Shown in pieces: positions 14,666 to 45,328 of a stretch of 64,000 bases of DNA (its first letter is position 1; each line of letters opens with the position of its first letter). Origin of the DNA: Obrimoposthia wandeli (lineage: Eukaryota); contig CDROCS010001822.1 in the NCBI GenBank assembly GCA_977020255.1, positions 124,001 through 188,000 of the forward strand. Reading direction: 5' to 3'. Made by a program: the position numbers and the translations under genes. The notes beneath the pieces were generated by a model, which was not told the DNA's origin, made no database searches, and was given only the letters and a program-made list of their open reading frames with translations.

Positions 14666-14840
14666 TGTTAGGTTTAAGAATTAAGAAATTAAAATAATTT
14701 AGTCGATTAAATACTAAAATAAAAATCCTTGAAAGCAAGGTTGAAAATTAAATTAAATATTAATTTTAGATTCAAAATTGAAATTAGTGGAAGTTAGGAT
14801 AAAAATTAGGAGGACCACGAAGGTCGTGTATAGTGTAGGA

Positions 14841-14848
14841 TATATAAG
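14841..14848 (+). promoter_or_regulatory. LTR TATA box
   Basis: TATATAAG; the homologous position in the solo LTR reads ATATATATAG (43261). Confidence 0.6.
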
Positions 14849-14939
14849 GTTAGATTAATTAACCCAAAAGTGCAACAAAAAGCACATAATTAAAGGAAAA
14901 GCAAAAGGGAACAATTGAGAAAATCGAACGTCAATCAAG

Positions 14940-14989
14940 GTAAGCACTTTTTCGTGCAGTTAAATTGGAGTAACTAAATTATTTTTCAG
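14940..14989 (+). other. Predicted 50-nt mini-intron in the LTR leader
   Basis: CAAG|GTAAGC...ATTTTTCAG|C; a 54-nt equivalent occurs in the solo LTR (43818-43871). Confidence 0.6.
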
Positions 14990-15146
14990 CTGCCGCCAAA
15001 ACTCCAGTTGAAACAGCTGTCGACATTGCTGATTGACAGCCAGGAGTTGCAGAAATCGACTATAAAAGTCGTCGACCAAAAAACAAATAGACACGAAAGA
15101 AAAAATCAATATCCCAAATCTACTGAAGGGAATCGACCACATATTG

Positions 15147-15152
15147 GTAAGT
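15147..15152 (+). promoter_or_regulatory. Major 5' splice donor of the LTR leader
   Basis: TATTG|GTAAGT, a perfect consensus; the equivalent in the solo LTR is TATTG|GTAAGA (44028). Confidence 0.7.
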
Positions 15153-15200
15153 GAGATTTGGTGAAATTTGGATTAACTTATTGTAGATCACAAGTCTATT

Positions 15201-15522
15201 GCCAATATCGTTTGAAAGAAATATCGTTAAATATTGCCAATATCGTTTGAAAGAAATATCGTTAAATTTTGCCAATATCGTTTGAAAGAAATATCGCTAA
15301 ATATTGCCAATATCGTTTGAAAGAAATATCGTTAAATATTGCCAATATCGTTTGAAAGAAATATCGTTAAATTTTGCCAATATCGTTTGAAAGAAATATC
15401 GTTAAATTTTGCCAATATCGTTTGAAAGAAATATCGTTAAATGATGCCAATATCGTTTGAAAGAAATATCGTTAAATTTTGCCAATATCGTTTGAAAGAA
15501 ATATCGCTAAATATTGCCAATA
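15201..15522 (+). repeat. 35-bp tandem repeat in 5' LTR, 9 full copies plus a partial
   Basis: Unit GCCAATATCGTTTGAAAGAAATATCGTTAAAT(A/T)TT starts at 15201, 15236 ... 15481. Confidence 0.97.
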
Positions 15523-15623
15523 CATTGTTAAAAGAAGCCGATCGTCGCAATATTCCCAAACTACCTACGGATCCTGTACCGGAATTTCAAGCAGCATATA
15601 GGTAAGAACACCGACTAAAGCAT

Positions 15624-16060
15624 TCATTGCCCCTAGTTGGCAATTAGGATACATTCATTGCCCCTTGTTGGTAATTCGAAATTGTAATATATTTTAACCA
15701 TATTCATTGTCCCTAGCTGACAATTAGGATTGCTGTCTCTTTAACCAAATCATTGTCCCTAGTTGACAATTAGGATTGTCCATTTTATTCATTGTCCCCA
15801 GTTGACAATTAGGAATTGTACGAGTTTTTTCCCGTAAGATTCATTGTCTCTAGCTGACAATTCGGTTCACTCATTGTCCCTAGTTGACAATTCGGAACAA
15901 ATACTCATTGTCCCTAGTTAACAATTCGGTCCACTCATTGTCCCTAGTTGACAATTCGGAACCAACACTCATTGTCCTAGTTGACAATTCGGAGTAAGTT
16001 TTCATTGTCATCGTTGACAATTAGGTTTTTAGGAGAATCATTGTCCACAGTGGACAATTC
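15624..16060 (+). repeat. Array of 12 short palindromic units TC-ATTGTC-n6/7-GACAAT
   Basis: Units at 15626, 15657, 15706, 15752, 15791, 15843, 15873, 15907, 15937, 15971, 16004 and 16040. Confidence 0.9.
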
Positions 16061-16329
16061 GTGGTTAAATACACAACAGATAGAGTTACGGATTCAAGAA
16101 ACTTTATCCACACATAAGAAGTTGAGTCGAAGAAATTTAAGAGGGTTGCGTTATAGATTAACCAACCTAGGAAGAAGAATAACCCTAAAATCTCGATCAC
16201 CCGAACGTAAAATCGATACGTGGTTCATCCCCACTTCTTGTAGAGACTTACAGAAGTCTTAGGAATTTTACCATACTTTTTAGAGATACGTACATAAACG
16301 TATTGTTGTGTTTAGTTACGTGAATTACC

Positions 16330-16335
16330 AATAAA
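16330..16335 (+). terminator. LTR polyadenylation signal (functional copy expected at 37787-37792)
   Basis: The only AATAAA I found downstream of the TATA box in this LTR; conserved in the solo LTR (~45729). Confidence 0.6.
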
Positions 16336-16548
16336 CAATTTCCTACATTAGAACAAGTTGTTTTTGCACCCTTCAGAATAAGAGACATCGAATCAAATAC
16401 CTTCAGATAGTACAAGAGATAGGCAACCATAACACTAAGTAGGCCACGACCAACTTTAAGACCTGCTTCTAATCGAACTCACGTTGGGGCCCTCCGCATT
16501 TCAGAGGATCTGTACCAAGTTTCGTATAGAAACCCCAACATATTAAAG

Positions 16549-16566
16549 TGGTGCCCCGAGTGAGGA
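16549..16566 (+). other. Primer-binding site complementary to the 3' end of elongator tRNA-Met
   Basis: TGGTGCCCCGAGTGAGGA vs the complement of vertebrate elongator tRNA-Met 3' end (recalled) TGGTGCCCCGTGTGAGGA: one mismatch. Separated from the LTR by TATTAAAG. Confidence 0.8.
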
Positions 16567-16605
16567 TAGCTCGTCGGACACAGCGAATTCACGTGGAATA
16601 AGTTC

Positions 16606-16965
16606 AGATATTGAGAATAAGTTTCAGGTAAAAAGAATAAGTTTAGATAAGTTTCAGATAATTGAGAATAAGTTTCAGGTAAATAGAATAAGTTCAGATA
16701 AGTTTCAGATAATTGAGAATAAGTTTCAGGTAAATAGAATAAGTACAGATATTAAGAATAAGTTTCAGATATTAAGAATAAGTTTCAGATATTGAGAATA
16801 AGTTTCAGATAAATTGAGAATAAGTTTCAGATAAATTGAGAATAAGTTTCAGATAAATTGAGAATAAGTTTCAGCAGAAGAATATAGACAATTGAGAATA
16901 AGTTTCAGAAGAAGATATAAGCAAATTTAGAATAAGTTTCAGAAGAAGATATAAGTAAATTGAGA
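16606..16965 (+). repeat. Degenerate tandem repeat (~20-nt core TTGAGAATAAGTTTCAGATA) in the 5' untranslated region
   Basis: More than 12 variants of gagaataagtttcag. Confidence 0.9.
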
Positions 16966-17455
16966 TAAGAATTTGATAAGTTTTTGAGAAATCGAGTAGA
17001 TTTGTTCCTCGAAGTTAAGAATTTGATAAGTGTTGAGAAATCGGGTAGATTTGTTCCTCGAAGTTAAGAATTGATAAGTTTTGAGAAATCGGGTAGATTT
17101 GTTCCTCGAAGTTAAGAATTTGATAAGTTTTGAGAAATCGGGTAGATTTGTTCCTCGAAGTTAAGAATTTGATAAGTTTTGAGAAATCGGGTAGATTTGT
17201 TCCTCGAAGTTAAGAATTTGATAAGTGTTGAGAAATCGGGTAGATTTGTTCCTCGAAGTTAAGAATTTGATAAGTTTTGAGAAATCGGGTAGATTTGTTC
17301 CTCGAAGTTAAGAATTTGATAAGTTTTGAGAAATCGGGTAGATTTGTTCCTCAAAGTTAAGAATTTGATAAGTTTTTGAGAAATCGGGTAGATTTGTTCC
17401 TCGAAGTAAGAATTCGATAAGTTTTGAGAAGTCGAGTGGATTTGTTCCTCGAGCC
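16966..17455 (+). repeat. 49-bp tandem repeat, about 10 copies, in the 5' untranslated region
   Basis: Unit GTTAAGAATTTGATAAGTTTTGAGAAATCGGGTAGATTTGTTCCTCGAA. Confidence 0.93.
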
Positions 17456-17991
17456 AGTAAATTTGATAAAGTGAGAATCGAGTGGATTGATACTCGAAGT
17501 AATTAATTGAATAGGTTAAGTCGGGAGACTCTGTCCTCGAACTAATTAAAGAGATAAAAAATCGTAAAATAAGAATTGTGAAATAAGATAAAAATAATAA
17601 GTAAATTGATATCGTAAACGAATACATAATTGATAAGACAACGGATAATAGAAAAGGACCCGCGTATAATACTAGAAGACAAAGTCAGATTCCCAAGGAA
17701 GAGATAAATAATAATAAAGTTAACCGAATTGAACAGGTTCCCCAAACAGATAACAAAGTAACAGAAAAGACTAGAGTCGAAGAAAACGTATCAGAAAGAG
17801 ACGTAAATCAATCAGCAGTTTCAACCGATAGTTTTGATCTGACTGAGTTATTTGGTGACATAAACCCAGAAGAAATTGATAATCTTGAAGTTCAAAACCC
17901 AGAAGAAATTGAAATTGCCAATCCAGTAGTGATTGAAGAAGTTCAAGTAAATAATATTGAAGGAATAGTTGAAGACGATATAGTTGAAGAT

Positions 17992-18687
17992 ATGGCTCAC
18001 CAAGGAGCTCCACCAGATATTAATGCAGGAAATAATGTAGGTGAAATGAATGCCGAGCAGTTGGCACAAGCTTTAAATGCGACGTTGAGACCCAATTTTT
18101 CAGGATCATTGCAGATTACAAAGTTTAAAGGAGATGAGGAAAGTATTTGTGACTTCCTCGCAGAATATTCGAGTTGTGCAGATGTTCAAGGATGGAACGA
18201 TAAAGAAAAATGTGTCAGAGTACAGGCACATTTAACCGGATTAGCACTTGAAGTGTATAAACATTTGACAGAAGCAGAACGCATAGATTGGCCAACGTTG
18301 GAAAATGCTTTTATTGGAAAATTGGTATTAGGAGACTTAGCCAAAGTAAATAAGCGACTCATGAGAGAACGGAAACAGAAACATGATGAAGGCGTGAACG
18401 AATACGCGTATGTTTTGAGAACCTTGGCCGCAAGAGCGTACCCAAGAAGAATAATGAGAAATCAGGACGGTAATCCTGTAGCTCCAGAAGCACAAGCAGC
18501 GGAAAATGACCGGAACCAAAATGAAATGGCAGAGGTTTTGTTAGATATATTTAGAGGAGGATTGAAAAAGGATATTAAAGTGTTATTAGCAGTATCGGAT
18601 ACAAACGATTTTGATAACGCCGTACGAAAGGCGAGAGAGATTGAGAAAAATATAAAAATAATGCAGCATTGGCAATTTACGCAATGA
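17992..18687 (+). CDS. gag: Gag capsid portion; the frame is open from 17605 without an ATG; probably continuous with the large ORF
   Basis: ITKFKGDEESICDFLAEY...GWND...LTGLALEVY...WPTLENAF...QKHDEGVNEYAYVLRTLAARAYP...IFRGGL is a typical Ty3/gypsy capsid. Confidence 0.88.
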   Translation: MAHQGAPPDINAGNNVGEMNAEQLAQALNATLRPNFSGSLQITKFKGDEESICDFLAEYSSCADVQGWNDKEKCVRVQAHLTGLALEVYKHLTEAERIDWPTLENAFIGKLVLGDLAKVNKRLMRERKQKHDEGVNEYAYVLRTLAARAYPRRIMRNQDGNPVAPEAQAAENDRNQNEMAEVLLDIFRGGLKKDIKVLLAVSDTNDFDNAVRKAREIEKNIKIMQHWQFTQ

Positions 18688-21600
18688 CTGCAGGTGACGA
18701 CGATAAAACAAAGGTATTTGTGAATAAAACAGAACCGAGTAATTTTCAGAATCGAAATTATGGACAAAATAAGTTCGAAAAAGTAGATGAATCCAGTAAC
18801 GGAAATAGAGATAATTTCCGAAGTAGGAATCGAGATGATTCGAGAGGTAGAAATAATAGTGAGTCTTGGAACAGGAATCGAGATGATTCAAGAGGTAGAA
18901 ATAATAATGATTCGTGGAATAGAAATAGAGATGATTCCAGGAATAGATTTAATAGAGATAATTCAGGAAATCGCCAACCTTGGAGAGGAGACGATAGGAA
19001 TTATAACGCCAACAGAGGAGAGCGAAGTGACTCTCGATTTGGAAATAATACAGGAAATAGCGACGGAAGATTCAATAATCGAGGAAGCGGTTTTGAATCG
19101 AATTTCCGAAGAAATTATTTTAGAGGGCGCTATGATAATAGACAGAATAGTCGTCGAGTACAGTTCGAAGATGAACAAAATAAGATAGATATTCGAGGGA
19201 GAATAATGTGTTACACGTGTAAGCAAATGGGTCACTATTCGAGAGATTGTACGAGAAGTAAAGAGTTCGGAACTAACAGATTTGGAAATAATAATTTCGG
19301 TAATAATAATTTTGGAAATAATTATAGAGGATATAATTCACCTCCGCCATGGAATAGAGGTGGTGGATATACTCCACAGCCATGGAGACCGAATAATCAG
19401 TATACAGATAGACAACAGTCACCAGGTAGATACAATAACTATGCAGACAGACAGCAAGGAGCTGAGAGATACAATAATTACGTAGGACAGCAAGGAGCTG
19501 AGAGATATAATAATTCTGGTAGATATAATAATAATAATGTCGACAAGACAAATAGTCGTGAGAGTTCGCCGAAACCGAAAGGAAATTTCAGTTATGTAAG
19601 CGATGACAGTGATAGGAATCGCGAGACCGAACTTCGACGCGAAATAGATTTTGAAGATAGTGATAGTAAATTTGAACGAATGTTGGGAATAATTAAAGAT
19701 TCACCACATACAAAGATGGCAAATTCATCTACGTTGTCGAAACAAGAAAAAAGTCTACACTCGAGAGAAGATATGAATGATTTAATGAATAAAATACTAG
19801 AAGCGTATGAGACACCAATAGAGAAAACGTGTAACGCACAACCGATGATTGAGCATGTAGAAGCAGCGAGAAATGCTACGAGTATGGAAAATGTAAAAAA
19901 GATAATTAGTGAAGCTAAGGAGACGTTAAATCAACCGTTAGATGAAACGAGTGAAGCTCCAGAAGTTTTGGCCAAATTACAAACAATTAAAGTGCACCGA
20001 TTGGAAGAAGTGCGTGCAGAATTGGTTAAACATAGTCATGATAACTTGGATTACAAAGAAGTACCACGAGGATTATTGAAAGGTTATGGTCGTTACGTAC
20101 AGAGATCAAACCAAAAAGGAACGATGAAAATTTCACTTCGATTAATTTCCGGACAGATAATACATGAAAAACTTAACGTGTATCAAACAATGAAAACGAT
20201 TCGGAAAAAGTTAGCCGAGAAACTTGAAATTGATGGAATGAATATGTTGTTCCATTATAAAGGGAGATCACTAGATGATGAGGACGTACCAGTCGAGTGT
20301 GGATATCCGATAGGAAATGAATTAGAGGAAAAAATTGATGTCATCACTGTAGGACGTCAAGAGTTAGTAGATAATGAAGGATTAACGGAGATATTGAATT
20401 CTGCGTTAGAAATGATAAAAACGCCTATAGAAATTTTAGACAGTTCAAGCGAAAGCGGAGATAATGATGTAGCTGAAGCTTGGAACAAGACATCCACACC
20501 AGAACCGTACGTAGCTGAATTACAAGATATGAATTTAGAAAATGAGTTGACAACTCCAGTGGTCGAGGTGCCACCAGAACCAGATATAATTCAAATCAGA
20601 CAAGATGAAGTCACGGATACAGCTAACCAAGTGCGACAAAACGAAACCGTAACCCAACTAGTAGGAGAAGACGAAGTCTCCGAGATTGTAGATTTGGATT
20701 CACCAATTTGGCATGCCGCATACAGAGATAGACAAGCAGAGCAAATGATGCGACAAAATGAAGAGATTGGCCATGAAGAAGGACCAAGTCACGAGATACA
20801 GTATAATGGTGAACCGTATGATCCAGGAGAGAATCAAACTGAGTATCAGTATTTTCGAAGAGGACCTGGAAGACCTAGAAAAGGCGAAAGTATATTACGA
20901 AATGTTCTAACTGCACCACAAACTGATGAAGAGAGACATCTAAGTATTGGACAGTTAGCAGCGTCATTAGAGCAGTATAGTGCAGAGAGGAATGAAGATA
21001 TCAGAGGTGATATGAATTCGGAAACTCCAAGTAGTAAAGATATACTTACGGGAATTCTCAGGCAAGTGAAGCCGAAGTTGTTTAAAATGTACAGAGATGA
21101 AACAACCGATATAACAGACAATTTGACTAAAGCAGTTAGATCACAAATGTCTGCAGTAAAGAGAATGACTGCGAATCATGTATACCATGCATCCATAGAT
21201 AGATTCTATGACGGTGAAGTTTTAGCGAGATTATGTGGAAACCAAACTACAAATAAAAAGTTAATTACAGCGATCACATATCTATGTTTCCAATTGACGG
21301 AACGAACGAGCCAACCTCACGAAGTCAAACAAGGAATAAATGAAGCGATGTATTTGATCGAGAATGTATTACAGAGACGAATTGACGAAAATGGAGGTTG
21401 GGCAAAATTAAGTGACTACGCTAAAACCATTTTGGAAATGAATGAAGACGATGACGAACAATGTCATGAGAATCGTCAAAAGGAAAATAAACAATACCGT
21501 CCGAAAGAGAGAAACAATCAACCAAATATGTCCACAACAATGATGATGATGATGTTAGTAATGTTTATGGGAATGCAACAGGCATCAGGATTGATAGCAT

Positions 21601-24600
21601 ATGACTGTAGCATACCAAAGATGGGACAAAAGTATTCACTGCTTGACAGCGAAGACTGTCCAGAGTCACAGCCGTCAAAATTAGAAGTTAAAGGTGTTGA
21701 AAACTACTTTGTGTATCAGGATGTTGATAAAGTACAAGTAGAAGTGAAAGAATGTTCAATCCATTCAAGTTATCACGAATTCTATTGTGGCCATAGAAGT
21801 TTTATGTCAGAAATTACACCTACCACACCGTACAAGGCACATAAGGTTTTGCCGAGAGATTGCGAAGACGCATTTCGAACGGGAACAATAGAGGTAGACA
21901 AGAATTACAAACCTGATGTAAAAATTGGAGTGAGACGATACGAAACAGTCACGAGAGTCGGACAACGATGGGCTGATGGATCTTGTAACGGAGGAACAAA
22001 AAACGTACGTGGAACCAAAGTAACTGCGTTAGTAATGGACGTAACTTACAAAATCGAATTAAAAACATGGACCGCCAATTTTGATAAAAAGACACAACTA
22101 ATGATGACGTATCCAGAATGTAAAATGACAGATACATCTTGTTTTACAGGCGAATCCACAATTGTGTATCAAGTGAATCCGAAGCAATGCTCTTTAGTAT
22201 TTTTGAAAGAGATTAGTTTTAATAAAATAAAAGGATTCCTGTATAATAGAGATGGAGAAGGATTCCTGTATAATAAAGTTGGAAAAGGATTGCTCAATGA
22301 AACAAGACCAATCCCAATGACAAAAACACCTACACTGTTAATGGCAACATCAATAGAAGAAGGATTGATATTTATTAAAAAGAGAAACAAGACGCGATGC
22401 GGAATGACTGTTAGTACTACAAACTATCCAGGAATAGTTTTGTCCAAAGAAGCAATAGCATTGGCAGAAACCAAGCTAAAACCAAAAAATATGCAGCTAC
22501 ACACGTATTTTAGTAATAAAATTGATTTCTATTATCATAAAGGATTGATGCAAATGGAACAGTTATATCGAATGATGATCGAAAGAGATTGCCAGCTAAA
22601 CAAAGAGATCGTAAGAACAAAGTTAGCATTAGCTATTACGAATCCAGACATGGTAGCACCATTATTACCCTTGGATGAAGGAGTATTTGCTAAAACCATG
22701 GGAGAAGTATTGTATACTTACAAGTGTAATAAAGTAGAAGTACAGTTGAGAACAACAAACCGATGTACGAGTGAATTGGCAGTAACGTATAATTTAAAAG
22801 ATCTTTTTGTTGAACCAATCACGAGAATGATACTTCCAAAAGACACTCCAACTAAAGAAATCAGCTGCTCTAATATAATGGCACCTGAATATCAGATGAC
22901 GAATGATTTATGGATAACGTTACCTGATCGAAAGCCAACGAAAACCCCAGCGATGATAAGAATGACGAATCTTAAAGGTAAAATGAAATTCCAAGCGGTG
23001 GAAAATATGGAGAACGCAGGATTGTACAATGAAAAAGATTTAAAAGCGGCGTGGAACGAAATAATGTTTCCAGTAAAAAGAGCCAGAGTACTTACGGAGA
23101 TGGTACATCGAGCATTACCGCCAGGAGCGAGATATGCGAATTTCGATATGTTATTATCGCCAAGTCATTTCAAGGAAGCAGCACATCAGACACTTAGAAA
23201 GATGTGGGGGAAATTCCTTGTTTTAGGACAATTATTTTCGGGTATCATAGGTATTTATGTTATAATTAAATTTGTGCAGGTAATTATAGCCCAGGTGTTG
23301 TCTACGTATAGTTTATACAGGATAACCGGAATCACCTGGCAACTTATAATTGGATGTTTTCCATTTTTAGCAAAATATCTAATGCACCATCATCACGAGA
23401 ACGAGTTGCGAGCCCTCAAGAAGGAACAACACCAAACGAGAACCATGATGCGAGAACCAAGAAACTATCGAGACGACAACGACGACGATAATGATAGTCC
23501 AGGAGTATATGCAAAGATACCCGGAAAACCAAAGATTCCGTTACCAGACAAGGAAGAAGTGGCGTTAAACCTATATCCAATGAAGGAACTAAAGGAGGAG
23601 AAGGAAAAGTTCAAGAGAGGCATCTTAATGATAAGATGGCCTAAAGTGAGCTACAGTGAGATTCCACAAGCAGAGGAAAAAGACAAAAAAGATAATTCCA
23701 GAAGAATTCTGAAGTCTAGGATATCAAATGAGAATCCAAATGCTCCACCACAAGTAGCAGTAACATTAAACGGAAGAGAATATCTTGCCGAAGTTGATAC
23801 CGGATCTGCAGTATCAGTACTGAGTAAAGAAATCTTGTCATCAAAAGAATTAAGAGAAGTATGTCCTAGAAAACAGACATTTGTTAACGTGAATGGTACA
23901 GATGTAGTGTCGGAAGGAACACTGAAATGTTCGTTGAATATCGATGGAAGAGCATTGCAGTTAAATGCTAGAATATTCACAGATTGCGGTAGTCCAGTCA
24001 TGATTTGGATGGACGTAATACGAATGTTTGAAGGAATAATTATACTACCAAACAACAAGAGTTATAAGAATGACAGTTCAGTGAGAGAGATAAAAATGTT
24101 GAGAGGACCTATAGTCGAAAAGGAAAAATACACTACGTTCCGTATGGGAAATTCGTACCAAGACAAAAAACAGGAAGCGCTAGTAAAGTCGATACTTCAC
24201 TACAAAAACGTAAACCTCGGACCACAAGAGATGACGAGGAGAAAAATAACATATGTGAATCTGTCAGAAAGGGATCCCATGAGATTCGAGAGAAAGAGAC
24301 GAAATATATTAGAACTGTACTATTCAAAAGAAATGGCACGTAAAATGGCAAGATCAGGTTTAGAAATGTTAAATGCGACAAGCAGTTATGGTCATGAGAT
24401 AGTAGTACGATGCGTATGGTGTAGAGTAAAGTTTAGAGAGTGGGAAAAGAATGAAAACCCAATGAGACGTCATAAAAGAGATGCACCAAATTGTCCATTT
24501 CTTTTAAAACTGAAAACTTCAAACGTACCAGAAATCCAAACGGGAAAAGTACCCGATTTCGATTACAGTGACGGGATTCCAAAAGGAGAATCAGCTCTAA

Positions 24601-27600
24601 TAACAGGTAGAGTAATAACAAATAGCCGAATTGAAGATATATTCGAAGTTATGCGAGAAGTGAACGAATGTGACGAACAGTATCGAGAAGTAACTTTCGA
24701 AGACCCAAGACTTAAAAAATTGGCAAAAAAGGGACTTTTTGCTATAAAAAAGGATGGTAAAGACGTAATTAAATGCCACAAGTGTAAAAAAGAACGAATT
24801 ATCGACAGATATACTCTTGAGCTACCTAATAAAATTTTACATCATGAATTTTGCGAGTTTGGTATGTTAAAAAACAAAATAAAGCAAAAAGAACAGAAAA
24901 CCGAATGTATAATCGAATACCAAATCACACGAAAAGAGATTTTGGCTCAACAAGACACACCAGTAGTGTCATTCGTGAGAAGGTTATATCCAAAAGAAGC
25001 AGAAAGAATCAGAGAATTGGTAGAATTAAAAATAAAAACTACGCGAAACGGATACGGATCGATTTTTGAATTACTGCGAGATAAAGATGACAGTACAATT
25101 GAAACAAAAGAGAAAGAGTACATAAATGAACTAGAATACGTACTAGAAGATCCGGAATGCGCAGTTTGCATGGTCAACAAAATAGAAGTTGCCTTTCTAC
25201 CATGCGGACATGTAAGAACATGTCGGAGATGTGCGAATGAAATGGTATCATGTCCGATTTGTCGAAGAATAATAGATCGACAAGTGAGAAACATTAGATT
25301 TCACTATCCAAACATAGGAAGTGGACTGACAGAGTGTAATAATTCGATAAATACAATATACCATATGGGAAACATAAATGGAGCACAGCGACCAGCAGCT
25401 ATCATTAGAGTAAATAATTTAAGAGTAAAAGCCTTAATTGATACAGGTGCTGTAGCTTCGATAGTAAGTGAAGACTGTTTGACAGAGGAACAGAAACGAA
25501 CAATGGCAGAACCAGATGAATTCTTGGTATCGGTCAATGGAGACCCTGTAAAAGTGACGGGAATATTACCATGTACATTTATAATTGGACGTAATACGAT
25601 CACTATACCAGTTAGAATCATGAAAGAATGTCCTGAACCTACAATTTTAGGAATGGATGTACTATCACAACTTAAAGGGATAAGTATTGATTTACAAGAT
25701 CCAAGATTGAAGGATAGCACATCAAACAGACAAATAAACCAAATTGATGTAATTATAGAGAATCCTATAAAAATCGGTAAAAGATCACAATTTCTCATTC
25801 AAGGTCACACATTATCAGAAGATAAAGGACCAGTTGTGTTCGAACCATCACGAGATTTCATAGAGAAATACGAATTACCAGTTGTGAGTACAGTATGCCT
25901 GATCGAAAACCACAAAATACCAGTTAGACTGATGAATACAACCAACAATGACATTCTATTATACAGAGGAATGAGGTTGGGAAAGATAGCACAGATGGAG
26001 AATCCCACCGTGTGTGCTACGAAACTCGATAAAGATACGAATGATTACGAAGAAATAGTAATCCAATCAGAAAGACTGACAACTAGAGAAAAGAAACAAT
26101 TACTTGATCTAATACATAAATTTCCGAAAGTAATTGCAAAAAATCCATATGACATAGGAGAAACACCTGTCATAAAACATACAATACCACTGACAGAAGA
26201 CAAAGTAGTCAGAAGAAGACCATATCGAGTACCATTACAATTACAAGATGAAGTAAAAAGTCAGATTGAAGATATGTCTAAAACAGGAGTAATTAGACCG
26301 AGTTTTTCGCCATTCTCAGCACCTGTGGTGTTGGTAAAAAAGAAGGATGGGAAAATGAGATTCTGTATAGATTTCAGAGAACTGAACAAGATCACAAGAA
26401 AAGATGTGTATCCATTACCTAGAATCGAAGAGATGCTCGATAAATTGGGTAATTCAGATTATTTTACGACATTAGATTTGCAGAGTGGATACTGGCAAAT
26501 CGAGATAGAGGAAGAGGACAAACACAAAACAGCCTTTTCCTGCGGAGATGGACTGTACGAATGCGAAAAGATGCCATTCGGACTGACAGGAGCTCCAGCA
26601 ACATTTCAGCGTTGCATGAATTTTGTACTCGCATCGTGTGCAAACACGATGGTTTATATTGATGACATAATAATATTTTCGAAAACGTTCGAAGAACATT
26701 TAAAAAATCTTGAAGTTGTATTTAAAAGACTGGAAAACGCTAAATTAAAAGTTAAACCTACAAAATGCGAATGGGCTAAAGAGCGAGTAACATTTTTAGG
26801 ACATATAGTATCGAAAGAAGGCATTCGTCCTGATCCGGCAAAGATCGAGAAAGTAAAAGCGCATTTAGCGCCAAAGACTGTTAAGGAGATACAGAGTTTT
26901 TTAGGTCTTGCGAATTATTACAGACGATTTGTTGAACATTTTTCAGATATAGCAACACCATTGAGAAAGTTGACGAGGAAAGATGAGAAGTTCATATGGG
27001 GAGAAGAAGCCCAACAAGCATTCGAGCATTTAAAAGAAAGACTGATAAAAGAACCAATATTAGCGTTTCCAGATATAAACCGACAATTCATACTCATGAC
27101 AGATGCAAGTAACTATGCTGTAGGAGCAGTATTGGGACAAGAGGATGACGAAGGAAGAGAACACGTCATCGCGTATGCGAGTAGAGGATTAAACAGAGCC
27201 GAAAGAGGATACTCTGTTATCGAAAAGGAATGTCTAGCCATAGTGTATTCATGTAGACAGTACAGACACTACTTGCTAGGACAAAAAGTATTCCTGTATA
27301 CAGATCACAAACCACTACAGTTCTTATATAAACATAGAGATGAGATGAGTAGATTAAACAGATGGTTTCTAAAATTGGCCGAATTCGATCTAGAAATCCG
27401 TTATAGAACCGGAAAGTCGAATGGCAACGCAGATTGTTTATCGAGATTGACAAATGTAGATGAAAAAGGAAACATAATTCCAGAGGAAAAACAAGATGAA
27501 ACCAATGACCAAAAAGGAGAAGCAAATCTACTGACGATTTTGCTAAAGACGGTTAAAATAGACAAAGAGATCATCAAAGAACAGAAAGAAGATGAAGAAC

Positions 27601-30600
27601 TGAGTCTAATCAAAGAATTGTTGGTGAAAGGAGATCTAAACGATGAAATGACGAAAAAATACTCGATAAAAGAAGGAATCTTGTATATTGTCAATAATGT
27701 CGGAAAGATAGTAGTAGTAATTCCGAAGTCATTGAAAACAGCAGTGATGATCCAGTATCACGACGGAACACTAGGAGGACATCTGTCAGGGCGAAAGACA
27801 ATAGCCAGAATCAAAGAGAAGTACCATTGGGATGGTATGGAAGACGACATAAAACAATGGTGTAAACAATGTAAAGTATGTTTAACCAGAAAAGACACTG
27901 GAACTCGTACTAAAGTTCCACTGAAACCAATGCCAGTTCCCTTGGCACCAATGGAATTCATAGCGATGGATATATTGGGACCATTGAGAGAATCAAGTAA
28001 AGGAAACAAGTACGTCATAGTATTTACGGATTACATGACGAGATGGGTAGAAGCATATCCCATGCAAAACCAGAAGGCTGAAACAATAGCACAAATCTTA
28101 GTGGAAGAGATAATATTTCGATACGGAGTGCCTAGAAAGTTGTTAACGGATCAAGGTAAGAACTTCACTGGAGAAGTCATAAAAGCAGTATCGAAGATAT
28201 TCGGAATCATGAAGTTACAAACTTCACCATATCACCCACAGACAGATGGTCTGGTAGAAAGGTTTAATAAAACTTTATGTATGATGGTACAATCCTATTG
28301 CTCCGACAAGCAAGAGGATTGGGATAAATATTTACCTTCATGTTTATATGCTTACAGGAATTCAGTTCGAGAGGCGACGGGTCACACACCATTCTATCTG
28401 ATGTATCTCAGACAGAACAATATGCCGATGGATCTGGAGTGGACCGAGCCAACATCTCAGTATCTAGAAACTGAACAATACATTGTCGTCATGAAGGAAA
28501 GATTACAAGATGCTTGGACCAAAGCCGGATTGAAGTTGAAATTCAATCAAGAAGGTTACAAGGAACAATACGACAAAAAAGCAAAACCACATGAATTTAG
28601 AGTCGGAGATCAAGTGATGATATTTTATCCAGTCATCGAACCAGGTCTATTGTTTAAACTTCATAGACCATACAAAGGACCATACAAGGTGATCCAGACA
28701 ACCTCAACAAATTTGAAAGTAATCAACGAAGAGAATCGGAACAAGGAACCGATGATTGTACATGCAAATCGATGCAAATTAGTACCAAATAAAGATAATG
28801 CGTCACGATATGAGTTAAGATCACAGAAATCGAAATCGAATACCAATACCATTAAACTTACACGAATGGTAAGTGATCGGAACTACATAAACATGATGAC
28901 GAGTGGTAGCGAGAAAAAACCAGCGAGAATTGGTATGCTCAGAATGAAGTACCAAGAGGAAAAGGAAGTAATCCGACACATCGCACCACAAGAGATATTA
29001 GAAGAAGACGAAGAGATAATAGTCGTTTTCGAAAAAACACAACCCACAGATGTGGCTAAAGAAGTCATTGTGAAAGATGCACTGACAAACGAATTTCTGT
29101 GCGAACTTAGAGTGTCATACTACGACGGAAATACATTAGTCGCAGCACTATATCAAAACTCCAATGTGTTTACGACTGAGAAAGTGCTAATCGAAATCAC
29201 ATTGACACCAAACATAGTTGCATGGCAGAACTATGACAGTACTGAAGCAGGACTAGCCAGTCAGGAAGAGAAGGAACCGGCCGGTGGTCACATACTGCAT
29301 GGTACACCAAAAAGACTTAAACAAGAATACCCCGATGTAATAATGGTATTACGTAATTCACATGGGAAAAGAGATATCATGAGAGTCCATTTAATCGACG
29401 CTGATACTGAAAAGATAATTTGTCAGATGGATACTAAATACTTTGATGGAAAGACAATTGTATGTTGTATACCAGAATCTCACCGGTTAGACACAGATCA
29501 AACGGAAGTATCTGTAAGGTTGAGCGTAATAGAAGGATTCCATTCGCCAACCCATCCGGAAGTGACTAACAATAAAATCATCAAAGCAACGGCAGAGTTA
29601 CGCATTGACAGCGGATACCGGAAGTGGGAAGCTAAAAATAAAAAACCACAAAGAATCAATATGATCCGAGAACAAGTGACCAACTCAATCCAGCCAAAAT
29701 ATCATGCTGAAATAGTATCATCCGCGCCAAGTGTGATCACATCGATAAACGACGAAATTATAATTTTACTAAAAAATCGATGGCCGTCATCAACTGAGAT
29801 ACGAGTAAACTTAATTAATTATGCGAAGACACCGATATCTAAGCTGAATGTTACCTATTTCGATGGATTGTCCATCATGGGTAAATTAGAAACAATTGTC
29901 ATGTGCTATGGAGCACAGTTCCAAGTTGAGATACTTAAAGATAGTGTAATACCGTATCCGATTCACAAATACGAAGGGAAAATCAATCCAATTATTCTAA
30001 CCCCTTCATTAATTTCAGTTCAGACAGACATACCAGAATACCCTTCGAGCGAGTCTAGTGAAGACAGCGAACCAGAAAGTAACGATACAGAATCAACAGA
30101 ATCCGAAGATAACATAATAGAGCGATTCGGAAGAACCATGGAGGTTGAATTCGCTAAAGAGAGCAGAAAAAGACAAAACATAGAATTCGTGAAACAGAAT
30201 ATACAAGAAAGACGAATTAAATCTGCAGAAGAGACCGAGTCGGAAGAAGACTCAACAAAGGAACAGACATCAGAGACAAAGATGAATATCTCTCCAGCAA
30301 TACGAATGCTGAGAGGAAAGAAACTGGCGAAACTATCCAACATCGACGAACAAATAGAGAAGAGATTAGAAAGACTAAAACTTGAAGAGTCAGAATTAAT
30401 GCCACCAATGAGTGAGATCATAACAGGTAAGTTATACCTCGGAAATGTGGAGGATGCAACAGATGAAAAGAAACTGTTGGAACAAGGGATAACATACGTG
30501 ATCAACGTTACAATGAATCACAAATCGCAATATCAGACGATCAGAGCTATGACATTAAGAGTAAAAGACTCAATGGACGCTAATCTTCTCGAATGGTTTG

Positions 30601-33600
30601 TAGAAACAAACGAAATACTTCACAGAGAACTCCGGAACCAAGGAAAAGTGTTGGTACATTGTCAGAAAGGAATTTCTCGATCAGCAACTCTAGTATTAGC
30701 ATACCTAATAAAGACTAGACGAATGCAGGTACTAGAAGCGCTAAAATACCTACAGGAGAGAAGAAGTATTGCAAACCCAAATCTTAATTTTTTGGGACAG
30801 TTGGCAAATTACCAACTTCTGTTGCAAGAACAAAGACGGATGGACAACATTCCTGAGGATCCAAAGGAAAAGAATTTCCTCCAAGCATTATCATTGACCG
30901 GGTTATTCTTAGCCGGAGTCGACAAAATTACACAGATAATGCCAAAAGTATTTTTATGTCATCCAGGAGATATAGATACTGCTGGATTAAAGTTCCACAG
31001 TATCAACCGAGTAATCAACATTGTTGAAGTAGGAAACGAGATAATTAGTCTGTGTCAAAATACTGAAGATGACACCACTCGATACATACATGCTTCCAAT
31101 CGAGAAATAAACGATGCACAACAACATCTGACGAAATTGACTCAAACCATCCAAGCTGAAGTCACAGAAGGAAACGGCGTTCTGATATATCAGAAAAAAG
31201 GTACAATGTTAGCGCCTACCATAGGTGTATCCTTGTTGGTAGAGTACCATGGTCACACGCCAGAAGAAGCGATGGTCTACATCAAACAGAATAGACCAAA
31301 TACGGAATTCAAACCGTTACTCGTTCGAGAAATAGAGAAATACACCGAAAAGAGGAAGCAACAACGAGAAACAAATGAAGCTACAACAACAGTGCCCAGC
31401 TTTCAATACCAAAGATTGTTAGCAATAGGCTTGTTAAGTTGTCTAATGCCGATAACGGGAGCACAAGAAATAGGCTCCAACCACGGAAATAGTTCCTGGT
31501 TCAACGAAATCCACAACTACACCATACAGTACCATACGCCGGCACTGATGATGCTATTAGTGTTGTTAGGACTAATTGATGTGTGGATCATCCGAAAATG
31601 TCTTCGATCCATGAGAACCGACAGTAAAAGATTTCAGTTTGTAAAGATGAAAAGACCAAATGGACCAACGAACAAAGTGCTTGTGTATCTAGACGAAAGG
31701 ATCGAGGACAACATAGTAAATGAAGCGATATTTTACCCACAAAACAGAATACTGAATCAATTCCGAATAGATTACGAAGCTGACCGACAGCGCACACTTG
31801 ACCGAATATCAACAACATTCGCCGGATGCAAGCGAAGAAAACGAGTTGTAAAGGAAATACAAAAAGATGCTGATACAAAAGGACCAACGTATATATTCGA
31901 CGGCGATGTCATCAAAACACGTGAGTATGGAAGTAAGAGAGTGATAATTGAAACGATGGAAGGACATAAAACATGCTTCGGAAAGTTGACGATACAAGGT
32001 AACCCGGTACAGTTAATTATCGGAAAAAATGGAATCGAGGAGATGTCAAAACAACGACAGATAACAAAACGATCTAATCAGAAACAGATATCTCTCAAAC
32101 GATTGATAATTAAAACCCTTTGCAAAAGGTCAGTCAAGGCCCTGTGCACCGTTGCACAAGGATTGATTTATGGAGTAGTAATTGGATTGGTACTGCAAGC
32201 CATGCCAACCAGTAAAGCCGAATTGATGACACTATCCGAATATAATTTACATTTGAGAAATCTAGACAACACCCTAGAAATAATCAAGACATCCCACAGT
32301 AAAGCCGTGATGATCATGTGTGTAAAAGGATGTCCAGGACGAATGTGTATAGTCCCAGCGACCGAAATGATAACACTTAATGGACATTATGGAATTAGTG
32401 TTGTCACATGTGAAGACTACATATTTGGACAAACTAAAATAGTACTTCTCAGTGACATGTCCAACCAAAGTGCACACAAATTTAAAATATTAACCATCAA
32501 GAGTAAAGGAATACCAGCAGTACGTTACGGTATTCTAGAATTGGTTAATCCAATACTTGCACTGATCATTGGACTCATAATATTAATATTACTCATCTTG
32601 TTTTGTTGTACAAAGATAGAGTTGAGATCAAAAAAGAAGCGTCATGATCTCGCAAGACGAACAGGTCAAATGAACTTACAAAAATTCAACACAATTATAC
32701 CAAGACCACCATTTCTAGATGAACCAGCACCGGAGTACCAGCCAACGATATATGAACATATCGAGGAAAGACCGTACTATATGAGTAATTTGACTTGTTT
32801 CATTGAAGTTCCTGAGTTTAGGAATCGAACGATCATAGGAATCATGCTGATCATACAAATCACCACTACCAAGGCTAGTTATGAGATCATGATCAGTAAA
32901 TGGAGACAAGACGTAATACGGGCAGTATACATAGAAATCGCCCTTCTAAAAACAAATCACGTAGTAGACATTCATCTACAGACGTCAGCAACTGACAATA
33001 TCGATCAGAAATTGTATGTCATCCGACAGGTCAGAATAAAAATCGACCAAAGTACACCCGATTACAATTTAATATTATTATATCATGAAAGAGTGTTATA
33101 CCTACGGATAACAATATCAAAGAGGAAGCGGATTATCCAAAGTATCCGAACAAAGTCATTAATATTGCCTAGAGATGAGCGCATCTGGAAAATTGTCGAC
33201 AGGATTATGATCACAGGTAGACGACGTAAAGCCGTATGGAATTCCGTTAGGATATTTTTCAGATTGCTAGAAACCGACAGAGTAACAGTAATGTGTCCCA
33301 ACTCAGATGGCGGAATCAGATTCGAAATCCAAAGCCAAATGTTAGTACCACATTTTAACACAGAATGTCTGTGTAATCGAATTTCCAGTAATACTACAGA
33401 GACCTCGACCATAATCATGATAATAACAGGTGAAATATTCTACATAACTCTAAGATACCAGAACCGTCGATTTCGTAGATCCGGTATAAGTATCAAACCC
33501 AGGAAAATCATTCCCAAAAGACCAATCCTAGTCAAAAAGAAGGCAAAGGTAATCGAAAGTAAACGCCATTCCAAAAAACCGACAGTGATCAGAACAAAGA

Positions 33601-34153: not shown

Positions 34154-34453
34154 ATGTCCGAAGAATGCCCAATATGTTTGGAAGATCTAACCGAACGAAG
34201 AACAAGACCCGAAACCTGCAACCATTTACACCACGAGGAATGTTTATCGACATAGATCAGAACTTATGGACAGTTCGGACATCCAACATACCCTTGTTGC
34301 CCTGTATGCAGAAGACAATTCGCAAGATTCATCATGTTAGAACCCAACCAAGAGGATGTATATGTACAGGTGGTATTCTGTTGGAAGAATTTCGGAGAGT
34401 GTTGGTGTTATTACTGTTTGTCAGAACGACAAAATCCGACCACTTTTGTGTAA
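34154..34453 (+). pseudogene. RING-H2 accessory gene 1 with an in-frame TAG at 34253 (W codon in paralog)
   Basis: MSEECPICLEDL...TCNHLHHEECLST*IRTY...CPVCRRQF...FCWKNFGECWCYYC is colinear with gene 2. Confidence 0.85.
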
Positions 34454-34513
34454 ACATCACACAACCACCAGTCCTCAATCGAGCCCAAATTCAACATCAA
34501 CCCTCTCACAGTA

Positions 34514-34819
34514 ATGTCTGGAGAATGTTCCATCTGCTACGAGAGCATCATGGACTTCTACACCAAGCCCAACAACTGCGACCACCTCTTCCACGTCGAA
34601 TGCCTCGAGACGTGGATCCCCATCGCCAACAGCAACAATCCCCTCGACTTCCCAACCTGCCCGATGTGTAGAGCGACCTTCTCAGTACACTACGTGTACA
34701 ACCAGGACAGCCTCCAAGCAGTGGTACCCATAGTACACTGCTGGAAAACCATCTGCGATTGCTGGTGCTCGTTCTGCGTGGAGGAGCGAAGCACAGGCCA
34801 GCCCAATTCCCAACAATAA
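34514..34819 (+). CDS. RING-H2 accessory gene 2 (101 aa, putative E3 ligase)
   Basis: CSIC...CDHLFHVECLETW...CPMC, followed by the extra Cys cluster HCWKTICDCWCSFC. Confidence 0.88.
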   Translation: MSGECSICYESIMDFYTKPNNCDHLFHVECLETWIPIANSNNPLDFPTCPMCRATFSVHYVYNQDSLQAVVPIVHCWKTICDCWCSFCVEERSTGQPNSQQ

Positions 34820-35158
34820 TCGAAGGTAACTTTCTGACTTGAACGTGACATCATGAACTACCCTGTGTATCGCATACCGCGATAAATTAGCTACCATAAT
34901 TGTAATCATAATTATATAATCTTGTGAACTGTAAATTGACCATTACCATTTTTATGTATGATGTTTAACTGAAATTGTAATTATTATACTGAAATTCTAA
35001 AAAGACAATTTTTATGCTTAGTGTGAATGTGTAAACATGCCTAAAATCGGAACAAAACTCGGTAGGATTAAATAACTAAGGATTCGTTTTGAAATAAAAT
35101 TTAAATTAACGATGAGAACGGTGAACCCCAAATTGAAAGGAGTTATTTTCTTGTGCAG

Positions 35159-35656
35159 ATGAAGTGTACCGTCTGCCTCGAGAAAATTTGGACGGCATCG
35201 GCATCCCCTGTCGGCTGCCGTCACAAATTCCACGAATCATGCCTATATACTTGGGCCCGACTTCGACCCGAAGGACACGTAAATTGTCCATTGTGCCGTA
35301 CTCCCTTCGCGGAATGGACACTGCAGTGTCGAGGGCGCCACAAGGGCACCCATTCGCTCACCAGCTGTATTGGTGGCGAGCACTGCCATTGCCCCAATTG
35401 TATCGCGCGCCGTCGCGATGCAAAACTCGCTCTCCGCGAGAAATATCGGTCAACTCGCGACCCCCGCTCATGGCAGCGTGGCCGTCAAATATGGCTCGAG
35501 AATCGCGGAGTACACGGGCGGTACACGACCATTTTTCACCCGAGCCAACATCTCACCATGCGCCAGCAGATGATACTGTACAATGGCGGCCCACCATCGT
35601 ATCCAGAACTACCACTGGAGCAGGTCTTGCTGTTCCTGAAGGACAGGAACGGTTGA
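35159..35656 (+). CDS. RING-H2 accessory gene 3 (165 aa, putative E3 ligase)
   Basis: CTVC...CRHKFHESCLYTW...CPLC, plus HCHCPNC; ATG directly follows TTTTCTTGTGCAG. Confidence 0.88.
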   Translation: MKCTVCLEKIWTASASPVGCRHKFHESCLYTWARLRPEGHVNCPLCRTPFAEWTLQCRGRHKGTHSLTSCIGGEHCHCPNCIARRRDAKLALREKYRSTRDPRSWQRGRQIWLENRGVHGRYTTIFHPSQHLTMRQQMILYNGGPPSYPELPLEQVLLFLKDRNG

Positions 35657-36478
35657 CATATCCCTGACAATCTTGTTGACAGATCCCTGACAATCACCCT
35701 TAATCTTTTCTTGTGTGTAAATTTTTAGTTGTGATAAGTAATAATGTATGGTTTGAGACTTGCTCCAAATTATACATTATGATTCCCACTAAAAACCGGG
35801 GTTTTGAAAAATTTTGTTTTGGGCATGTTTGATGAGTTGAATGATTGATTTTGTAGGGATGAACCTAAAATCAACAGCCAGAGGCTTGTATAAGTAAAAT
35901 CGATACGTTCCGGGGACGTAACTTTTTTGGAACCCCCGAGGTATGTTAGGTTTAAGAATTAAGAAATTAAAATAATTTAGTCGATTAAATACTAAAATAA
36001 AAATCCTTGAAAGCAAGGTTGAAAATTAAATTAAATATTAATTTTAGATTCAAAATTGAAATTAGTGGAAGTTAGGATAAAAATTAGGAGGACCACGAAG
36101 GTCGTGTATAGTGTAGGATATATAAGGTTAGATTAATTAACCCAAAAGTGCAACAAAAAGCACATAATTAAAGGAAAAGCAAAAGGAAACAATTGAGAAA
36201 ATCGAACGTCAATCAAGGTAAGCACTTTTTCGTGCAGTTAAATTGGAGTAACTAAATTATTTTTCAGCTGCCGCCAAAACTCCAGTTGAAACAGCTGTCG
36301 ACATTGCTGATTGACAGCCAGGAGTTGCAGAAATCGACTATAAAAGTCGTCGACCAAAAAACAAATAGACACGAAAGAAAAAATCAATATCCCAAATCTA
36401 CTGAAGGGAATCGACCACATATTGGTAAGTGAGATTTGGTGAAATTTGGATTAACTTATTGTAGATCACAAGTCTATT

Positions 36479-36975
36479 GCCAATATCGTTTGAAAGAAAT
36501 ATCGTTAAATATTGCCAATATCGTTTGAAAGAAATATCGTTAAATATTGCCAATATCGTTTGAAAGAAATATCGTTAAATATTGCCAATATCGTTTGAAA
36601 GAAATATCGTTAAATTTTGCCAATATCGTTTGAAAGAAATATCGCTAAATATTGCCAATATCGTTTGAAAGAAATATCGTTAAATTTTGCCAATATCGTT
36701 TGAAAGAAATATCGTTAAATATTGCCAATATCGTTTGAAAGAAATATCGTTAAATATTGCCAATATCGTTTGAAAGAAATATCGTTAAATTTTGCCAATA
36801 TCGTTTGAAAGAAATATCGCTAAATATTGCCAATATCGTTTGAAAGAAATATCGTTAAATTTTGCCAATATCGTTTGAAAGAAATATCGTTAAATATTGC
36901 CAATATCGTTTGAAAGAAATATCGTTAAATTTTGCCAATATCGTTTGAAAGAAATATCGCTAAATATTGCCAATA
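36479..36975 (+). repeat. 35-bp tandem repeat in 3' LTR, 14 full copies plus a partial
   Basis: Unit starts at 36479, 36514 ... 36934; partial at 36969. Confidence 0.97.
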
Positions 36976-37076
36976 CATTGTTAAAAGAAGCCGATCGTCG
37001 CAATATTCCCAAACTACCTACGGATCCTGTACCGGAATTTCAAGCAGCATATAGGTAAGAACACCGACTAAAGCAT

Positions 37077-45117: not shown

Positions 45118-45328
45118 AAATCTAAATAATTTGTGTATTAACATCAAGTTTTTGTATTGATTTGAAGAATCTAAATAATTTGCGTATTGTTATCAAGTTT
45201 TTGGATTGAATTGAAAAGTCTAAATAATTTGCGTATTGATATCAAGTTTTTGTATTGAATTGAAAAGTCTAAATAATTTGCGTATTGATATTAAAGTTTT
45301 TGTATTGAATTGAAAAGTCTAAATAAAG
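45118..45328 (+). repeat. ~49-bp tandem repeat, 4 copies, inside the solo LTR
   Basis: Unit AAGTCTAAATAATTTGCGTATTGATATCAAGTTTTTGTATTGAATTGAA. Confidence 0.9.

What the first reader, a model, noticed from the sequence alone, without database searches (positions are those of the whole stretch)
14666..17991. A 3.3-kb AUG desert precedes the first gag ATG
On the + strand I found no ATG from the LTR start to 17992, except ATGATG at 15441-15446 in one variant repeat unit that is absent from the 3' LTR. Dozens would be expected in AT-rich sequence of this length, though tandem repeats reduce the independent length. The solo LTR, with entirely different repeats, is also ATG-free from 43205 to its end. 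This suggests selection for long-range ribosome scanning through the leader, and the private ATGATG may handicap this copy.
Basis: partly seen in the sequence, partly recalled or inferred. Interest (0 to 1): 0.72.

Follow-up and report, generated by a model that had tools for sequence, protein, structure and literature searches.

The report
Kilobase AUG-free leader of giant retroelement
A giant jumping gene keeps the three to four thousand letters in front of its main gene almost free of start signals in dozens of copies whose sequence there otherwise differs, likely so that ribosomes can slide that unusually long way, and its first protein likely begins at a non-standard start codon upstream of the first AUG.

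Summary
The desert is real. The window holds a 23.3-kb Burro-like, env-bearing Ty3/gypsy element. After collapsing repeats its leader has 0 ATG against 31 expected. Across 44 copies with differing leader repeats there are 5 against 186 in 14.2 kb of non-redundant sequence. CAT, near-cognate codons and the 3' region show nothing comparable.

(1) The desert starts at the TATA box (14841), not at the LTR start. In 16 copies picked by env there are 28 ATG in 2.8 kb upstream of TATA and 10 in 52 kb downstream. All 17 downstream sites in 44 copies are single-copy. This points to selection on the transcript. (2) The first ATG is probably not the only Gag start. The Gag frame is open 117-129 codons further upstream in 47 of 51 copies, with codon periodicity and in-frame shared indels. 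A second family (RT about 58% identical) has an AUG-poor leader and an upstream block under clear coding constraint.

Best reading: cap-dependent scanning of about 3 kb, with leaky non-AUG plus AUG initiation. No RNA data were available. The private ATGATG is unsupported by run contigs.

The parts
14666..16540 (+). 5' LTR (TGTT...AACA); 4-bp target-site duplication ATCT around the whole element 14666-37997
14666..14870 (+). Short U3 (inferred); ATG-free in this copy but carries shared ATGs in other LTR subfamilies
14841..14847 (+). TATA box, 170-178 nt from the LTR start wherever both were located; 5' edge of the ATG desert; transcription start inferred about 25-30 nt downstream
   Evidence: the start site is inference
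14870..17991 (+). AUG-free transcribed leader (R, U5, PBS, repeat arrays, Gag extension)
14940..14989 (+). Predicted 50-nt GT-AG intron; a GTRAG donor sits 91-135 nt after TATA in all 19 type-A copies
   Evidence: not confirmed by RNA
15147..15186 (+). Predicted 40-nt GT-AG intron
   Evidence: not confirmed by RNA
15197..15522 (+). 35-bp tandem array (9.3 units; 14.3 in the 3' LTR)
15441..15446 (+). Private ATGATG in one repeat unit; would open a 54-codon out-of-frame uORF; not supported by run contigs
15602..15606 (+). Last strong predicted splice donor (AG|GTAAG); candidate donor for subgenomic RNAs
   Evidence: inference
15841..15993 (+). 30-34-bp repeats, each with a short inverted repeat
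16330..16335 (+). AATAAA about 210 nt before the LTR end in every copy with a located LTR end; if used, R is about 1.5 kb here. Some subfamilies have earlier AATAAA, so this is uncertain
16549..16565 (+). Primer-binding-site-like TGG motif, identical in LTR subfamilies A and B; tRNA not identified
16596..17452 (+). Post-LTR tandem arrays (20-34 bp and 49 bp units), ATG-free
17605..17991 (+). 129 open codons in frame with Gag, without Met: likely non-AUG-initiated N-terminal extension (basic patch, then acidic linker). Candidate starts ATT 17629 (A at -3, G at +4), ACG 17641, ATC 17611, ATT 17605
17992..18687 (+). First AUG (purine at -3, G at +4 in 51 of 51 located copies) and Gag capsid region; the frame ends early in this copy
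18645..33899 (+). Rest of the polyprotein (5084 codons): zinc knuckle, weak ubiquitin-like and Bcl-2-like matches, Monjiviricetes fusion protein, protease-like, BIR, RING, protease, RT, RNase H, integrase, dual-specificity phosphatase
34154..35656 (+). Three small RING-finger ORFs (34154, broken in this copy; 34514-34819; 35159-35656), each starting 0-2 nt after an AG; ATG density here is normal
35944..37997 (+). 3' LTR, no ATG
43086..45943 (+). Solo LTR of a second LTR subfamily (TSD CTTG); about 10-16% alignable to type A; one ATG upstream of TATA, none after

Best explanation
This giant Ty3/gypsy element keeps AUG out of everything between its TATA box and gag across its family, likely because ribosomes load at the cap of the largely unspliced full-length RNA and scan about 3 kb, with some predicted to start at a near-cognate codon about 120 codons early and the rest at the strong first AUG. 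Shown: the depletion, its limits, strand and codon specificity, and that downstream ATGs are single-copy. Inferred: transcription starts just after TATA; the LTR is short U3, very long R, short U5; copies that gain an AUG make too little polyprotein (or lose their RNA) to leave descendants, which needs a cis link between an RNA's translation and its replication; leaky initiation gives a long and a short Gag polyprotein; the same AUG-free 5' exons serve spliced RNAs for the three RING ORFs.
For: Repeat-collapsed 0 against 30.9 in this copy; 5 against 185.6 in 14.2 kb non-redundant sequence from 44 copies, CAT 164 against 213. Leaders turn over fast: pairwise alignable fractions fall to about 40-60% among type-A copies and about 10% against type B, yet stay ATG-free. 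Boundary at TATA: 15 ATG in 4.5 kb upstream against 6 in 86.9 kb downstream (26 of 29 copies), replicated in 16 of 20 copies picked by env, 28 in 2.8 kb against 10 in 52.2 kb. Upstream ATG sites are shared by up to 5 copies and come as close as 3 nt to TATA; all 17 downstream sites are single-copy. The stretch after the last strong donor is ATG-free too (0 against 14.0), so it is not simply spliced away. Extension: open 117-129 codons in 47 of 51 copies; 3 of 3 shared indels in frame inside, 8 of 8 frame-shifting in the 143 nt upstream; 0 of 20000 shuffles give such a frame; 3-nt periodicity p 7e-14, absent just upstream. Second family: 24 ATG against 292 in 9 leaders, and a 33-codon block upstream of its first AUG with pN/pS 0.08-0.22 between subfamilies, like Gag proper at 0.07-0.18. 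It begins at AAA-ATT/ATA or AAG-ATT; in three subfamily types an in-frame stop lies just upstream with no AG between.
Against: No transcript, start-site, splicing or ribosome data. In family 1 the extension shows no synonymous excess (16 against 15.7) and stop avoidance is borderline (0 against 2.6, P 0.06; 0 against 3.0, P 0.04), so it could be a recently decayed coding relic. Near-cognate codons are not depleted in the leader. U3 is itself somewhat depleted (3 against 9.9 non-redundant). The second family tolerates some shared weak-context ATGs, its TATA assignment was unsure in several copies, and its conserved block was chosen after looking. The two families' extensions do not align significantly. 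Copies are related, so counts are not independent; some of the 8 upstream indels may be one event aligned two ways. At 6-8 nt/s (cell-free rates, PMC3141257) 3 kb takes about 6-8 min per scan.
Confidence: 0.68

Rival explanations
1. AUGs are purged to avoid uORF-triggered nonsense-mediated decay of the 21-kb genomic RNA, while Gag is reached by an IRES or a shunt rather than by full scanning.
For: Predicted leader introns (GGTRAG 12 against 1.6, 0 of 300 shuffles, sense strand only) would place exon junctions after any early uORF stop. The boundary at TATA fits equally well.
Against: An IRES makes far-upstream AUGs matter less, and pararetroviral shunts need a short uORF and a large stem-loop (PMC3542737 passages). 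Here there is no uORF and 200-nt windows fold only weakly (z from -2.4 to +3.7). Depletion runs unbroken right up to gag.
Confidence: 0.15
2. An 'ATG desert' promoter: transcription starts are dispersed along the LTR and leader, the translated RNAs are short, and the desert ensures all of them give the same Gag (compare separate translated and packaged RNA pools in BARE).
For: The concept is described for dispersed promoters (PMC5580651 passage). BARE uses a downstream TATA for its translated RNA (PMC3735527 passages).
Against: One positionally fixed TATA marks a sharp edge. Dispersed starts are described over 50-100 nt, not 3 kb. The most upstream RNAs would still have to be scanned for their AUGs to matter.
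Confidence: 0.08
3. The open frame upstream of the first AUG gets its start from a trans-spliced leader ending in AUG, not from a near-cognate codon; the RING ORFs might also be trans-spliced.
For: Flatworm spliced leaders end in AUG and planarians trans-splice (PMC12582326 passages). In-frame AG sites exist in the family-1 extension and in one family-2 subfamily.
Against: Three family-2 subfamily types have no AG between the upstream stop and the conserved block. Trans-splicing would discard the leader and remove the reason for a 3-kb desert.
Confidence: 0.07
4. A chance product of tandem repeats and base composition, or a mutational bias.
For: About 40% of this leader is repeated sequence (3326 to 2058 bp after collapsing).
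Against: 5 against 186 in non-redundant sequence; ATG is the lowest of 64 trinucleotides; U3 and the 3' region pass through the same replication cycle and keep ATGs.
Confidence: 0.01

Closest known systems
Burro giant Ty3/gypsy retrotransposons of planarians (PMC6431247, section 7 read)
   Same: Thousands of candidate copies; one polyprotein of about 5000 aa; mononegavirus-type fusion protein in frame between gag and protease; BIR; weak ubiquitin-like and Bcl-2-like matches; tandem repeats.
   Different: Shorter (23.3 kb). Carries a dual-specificity phosphatase and three 3' RING ORFs. No MATH or dUTPase match by Pfam. The section read says nothing on leader AUG content or non-AUG starts. The 2026 Burro1 paper was not held.
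Rice tungro bacilliform virus and badnavirus leaky scanning (PMC3542737, PMC5902531 passages)
   Same: A reverse-transcribing element that keeps a long stretch free of AUG, with an AUU start upstream of AUG starts.
   Different: About 895 nt there against 2.2-4.4 kb here. There it covers separate ORFs reached after a uORF-dependent shunt; here it is mostly non-coding repeat-rich leader without uORFs, and the non-AUG start would extend the same frame.
Murine leukemia virus CUG-initiated N-terminally extended Gag (PMC3542737 passage)
   Same: Upstream in-frame non-AUG start giving long and short Gag forms.
   Different: The MLV extension has a signal peptide. Here it is basic then acidic with no hydrophobic run (read from the sequence), and the candidate codons are AUU, AUA or ACG.
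Human LINE-1 900-nt 5' UTR (PMC3141257, PMC6769788 passages)
   Same: Retrotransposon leader scanned cap-dependently over a long distance.
   Different: Non-LTR element, GC-rich, three to five times shorter.
ATG-desert promoters (PMC5580651 passage)
   Same: ATG deficiency next to a promoter.
   Different: Those are dispersed-start promoters; here a TATA box forms a one-sided, sense-strand edge.

Membership tests
Ty3/gypsy LTR retrotransposon | PR-RT-RNaseH-IN order, LTRs, PBS, TSD | tested here: met
Burro | Single gag-to-pol polyprotein of about 5000 aa | tested here: met
   5084 open codons here; 40 of 51 copies read through the gag junction
Burro | Mononegavirus-type env in frame between gag and protease | tested here: met
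   PF24664 E 9e-94 upstream of the proteases
Burro | BIR (IAP) domain with RING | tested here: met
   PF00653 and PF13920 above cut-off
Burro | Ubiquitin/SUMO-like and BCL2-like motifs before env | tested here: inconclusive
   E 0.0015 and 0.062, both below cut-off; no Bcl-2 hit in PDB
Burro | dUTPase-like domain between PR and RT; MATH domain | tested here: inconclusive
   No Pfam match; the published dUTPase call came from HHpred, not run here
Burro | Sequence or RT-tree placement with Burro1-4 | not tested
   No named Burro sequence was obtained; filed as Burro-like only
Burro | Triclad planarian host | not testable with these tools
ATG-desert promoter class | Dispersed start sites inside the ATG-poor region | not testable with these tools
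   No RNA 5' end data; the fixed TATA edge argues against
Glyco-Gag type extension | Signal peptide in the non-AUG extension | tested here: not met
   No hydrophobic segment in the translations (by eye, no predictor run)
Non-AUG N-terminal extension | Coding constraint upstream of the first AUG | tested here: inconclusive
   Met in family 2. In this family frame, indels and periodicity support it, but there is no synonymous excess
Non-AUG N-terminal extension | Initiation shown at the near-cognate codon | not testable with these tools
   Needs ribosome profiling or proteomics

The most novel reading that the evidence does not exclude
Burro-like elements are complex, retrovirus-like proviruses whose full-length RNA is scanned from the cap over 3-4.4 kb of fast-evolving repeat sequence constrained mainly by absence of AUG. 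Gag begins at AUU/AUA with a conserved basic peptide that AUG-based annotation misses in at least two families, a kilobase-long R region carries short introns, and spliced subgenomic RNAs make three RING proteins.
Probability: 0.4. Interest if true: 0.75.

Novelty: new variant of a known kind. Interest (0 to 1): 0.6.

Why it matters
If it holds, this is a natural case of scanning three to five times longer than the LINE-1 and tungro-virus examples found in the papers read, and hundreds of natural leader variants offer a test of scanning processivity. The ATG edge maps the promoter of a major genome-shaping family without RNA data, a trick usable on other elements. It implies that translation and replication are coupled in cis, and that Gag N-termini of such elements may be annotated about 110-130 residues too short.

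Tried and rejected
No RNA holder was listed for the leader. The 4 runs laid gave no splice-type joints among those shown and say nothing on expression.

Programmed frameshift between gag and pol: rejected, since 40 of 51 copies read through. The break in this copy lies in an A-rich run, 1 other copy stops at the same codon, and it may be an assembly error.

An AUG formed by cis-splicing: rejected for the strong donors, whose exons end in G.

Shared-versus-private ATG test by single substitutions on this copy's sequence (second part): discarded, because it scored variants outside their own context. It was replaced by direct ATG context counts.

BEL/Pao control (13 loci): that family has only about 200 nt before its first ORF and no desert, so it is uninformative on long leaders.

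Protein searches: two word-based Gag searches found nothing. The profile search gave generic gypsy Gags without DNA context. One (P0012) has a basic-then-acidic N-terminus, but it did not align to the extension. The family-1 and family-2 extensions did not align.

Acceptor motifs were not enriched in the leader (10 against 8.5). No earlier scan notes existed for this genome.

Loci dropped: L022 and L027 (LTR start not found); L035 (no TATA anchor); L043 and L050 (left out of the totals); 10 of 20 type-B loci without gag; L102, L108, L093, L099 in the replication set; 7 of 16 family-2 loci without anchors; 3 of 7 3'-end loci without LTR.
Full report
OBSERVATION. The + strand has ATG only at 15441 and 15444 between 14476 and 17991, none in the 3' LTR, and none in the solo LTR after 43204. 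Against dinucleotide expectation this is 2 against 54.0 raw, and 0 against 30.9 after masking repeated 12-mers (which also masks the ATGATG); the solo LTR gives 0 against 12.2. ATG is the lowest of 64 trinucleotides. CAT (O/E 0.83), near-cognate codons, the element's own 3' region (46 against 50) and the flanks (649 against 695) show nothing comparable.

THE ELEMENT. It spans 14666-37997 with a 4-bp TSD. Its LTRs differ by about 8 substitutions plus repeat number. The polyprotein has Gag, zinc knuckle, Monjiviricetes fusion protein, BIR, RING, protease, RT, RNase H, integrase and a dual-specificity phosphatase, plus sub-threshold ubiquitin-like and Bcl-2-like matches. This matches the Burro layout described in PMC6431247 (passages and section 7 read); I call it Burro-like, as placement with named Burros was not tested. 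First-look candidates in the genome number 2280 and 2650 for two probes (not copy numbers). In this copy the Gag frame ends at 18687 and the rest lies in another frame. 40 of 51 copies read through, so this is a break of the copy or the assembly, not a recoding site.

FAMILY-WIDE TEST. I fetched 20 copies by the gag start, 20 by the solo-LTR type, 20 by RT and 20 by env. Leader interiors are very variable: some type-A pairs align over only about 40-60%, and the solo type over about 10%. In 26 copies with both anchors there are 15 ATG in 4.5 kb upstream of a TATA box fixed about 175 nt into the LTR, and 6 in 86.9 kb between TATA and the gag AUG. Sixteen of the 20 copies chosen by env, blind to the leader, gave 28 in 2.8 kb against 10 in 52.2 kb. 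Pooled over 44 copies, 14.2 kb of non-redundant leader has 5 ATG against 186 (CAT 164 against 213); masking hides point variants, but the raw list holds only 17 downstream sites. Each of those is in one copy, whereas upstream sites are shared and come as close as 3 nt to TATA. TATA-to-AUG distance is 2.2-4.4 kb (one deleted copy 1.4 kb). So AUGs arise after insertion (or as assembly errors) but are not inherited, and only in the part that would be transcribed before gag. Against this, U3 is itself somewhat ATG-poor (3 against 9.9), one copy has three ATGs within 131 nt after TATA, and copies are related.

LTR ANATOMY (inferred). TATA at 14841 implies a U3 of about 200 nt. An AATAAA about 210 nt before the LTR end, present in all copies with a located end, implies an R of about 1.5 kb here; some subfamilies have earlier AATAAA, so this is uncertain. 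GGTRAG donors are enriched on the sense strand (12 against 1.6; 0 of 300 shuffles; antisense 2 against 1.9), with two plausible 40-50-nt introns; acceptors are not enriched. Removing those introns shortens the leader by only 90 nt, and the stretch after the last strong donor is still ATG-free (0 against 14.0). Three small RING ORFs near the 3' end each begin 0-2 nt after an AG in a region of normal ATG density. The first was intact in 4 of 4 other copies with a located 3' LTR, the second in 3, and the third was full length in 2. They are best read as spliced subgenomic products that would share AUG-free 5' exons.

GAG STARTS EARLIER THAN THE FIRST ATG (likely). The Gag frame is open 129 codons upstream of 17992, while the other frames have 27 and 12 stops. 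It is open 117-129 codons in 47 of 51 copies. Shared indels are in frame inside (3 of 3) and frame-shifting in the 143 nt before it (8 of 8, some possibly the same event); the last of these lies 15 nt before 17605. Codon periodicity is strong (p 7e-14) and absent just upstream; 0 of 20000 shuffles give such a frame. However, there is no synonymous excess and stop avoidance is borderline, so this family alone does not prove current translation. A second env-bearing gypsy family (RT 53-65% identical; domains) is clearer. It has 24 ATG against 292 in 9 of 16 leaders (95 against 126 upstream; TATA unsure in several; some shared weak-context ATGs). Its frame is open about 106 codons upstream in most copies. 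A 33-codon block there has pN/pS 0.08-0.22 between subfamilies at pS 0.3-0.9 (block chosen after inspection; whole extension 0.3-0.63). It starts at a lysine codon followed by ATT or ATA; in three subfamily types a stop lies just upstream with no AG between, which leaves near-cognate initiation as the simple reading. The two extensions do not align significantly. The first AUG is kept in strong context in 51 of 51 located family-1 copies (located by a pattern that includes it) and is present in 13 of 16 family-2 copies, suggesting two Gag forms.

MECHANISM. Cap-dependent scanning of the full-length RNA over about 2.7 kb to a weak non-AUG start and about 3.1 kb to the AUG. A weak start is especially sensitive to upstream AUGs, which would explain the strictness (inference). 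Purging requires that an RNA's own translation or stability affects its replication (inference). Confidence 0.68. Rivals: NMD avoidance with internal entry (0.15), dispersed starts (0.08), a trans-spliced AUG for the extension (0.07), chance (0.01).

THE PRIVATE ATGATG. It would open a 54-codon out-of-frame uORF. In 4 runs of one sample every contig covering 15444 had another letter or a gap. Contigs drop rare variants and the sample may differ from the assembly, so it is either private or an error; the handicap idea is untested.

LITERATURE. Passages only were seen of PMC3542737, PMC5902531, PMC3735527, PMC12582326, PMC6769788, PMC5580651, PMC3141257, PMC8532177 and PMC13465017. AUG-free scanned stretches of about 900 nt (tungro virus), a scanned 900-nt leader (LINE-1) and non-AUG Gag extension (MLV) are known. 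Ten searches listed no paper on an AUG-free leader or non-AUG Gag start in Burro or other gypsy elements; only listings were seen for most, and one search was poorly aimed. The 2018 planarian genome paper was not read, and the 2026 Burro1 paper was not held; they or their supplements may describe transcripts or starts. No supplements were read.

VERDICT. Real, strongly selected, larger and more structured than first reported. A known principle at unusual scale, with a probable hidden Gag extension; unproven without RNA data. New variant of a known kind, interest 0.6.

Noticed in passing
window 34154-35656: Three paralogous small RING-finger ORFs between the polyprotein stop and the 3' LTR, each right behind an AG, conserved in other subfamilies; candidate accessory E3 ligases from subgenomic RNAs.
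   Followed up: partly
window 18645-33899: The polyprotein carries a dual-specificity phosphatase domain (two stretches) after integrase, a second protease-like segment before BIR, and about 1100 further residues with hydrophobic runs and no Pfam match.
   Followed up: no
L051-L066: Second env-bearing gypsy family with at least four subfamilies (75-98% DNA identity in RT), a longer GC-richer U3, an AUG-poor leader and a conserved Met-less peptide upstream of its first AUG.
   Followed up: partly
window 14666-16540 and L011-L050: LTR subfamilies share the first 200 and last 350 nt and a near-identical internal region but have unrelated interiors with different tandem arrays (35, 64, 67 bp and others), suggesting module swapping in R.
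   Followed up: partly
L071-L083: A BEL/Pao-like family with a very short 5' end whose first ORF includes a segment that by eye resembles a chaperonin fragment (recalled resemblance, not searched).
   Followed up: no
window 47460-48959 (+): 499-codon open frame matching the ANF_receptor ligand-binding domain; host gene exon.
   Followed up: no
window 5406-5906 (+): D-Tyr-tRNA deacylase ORF.
   Followed up: no
window 14359-14665 and 37998-38281: The element inserted into a CATC-rich repeat; a nested inverted-repeat pair (38027-38740) follows, MITE-like.
   Followed up: no
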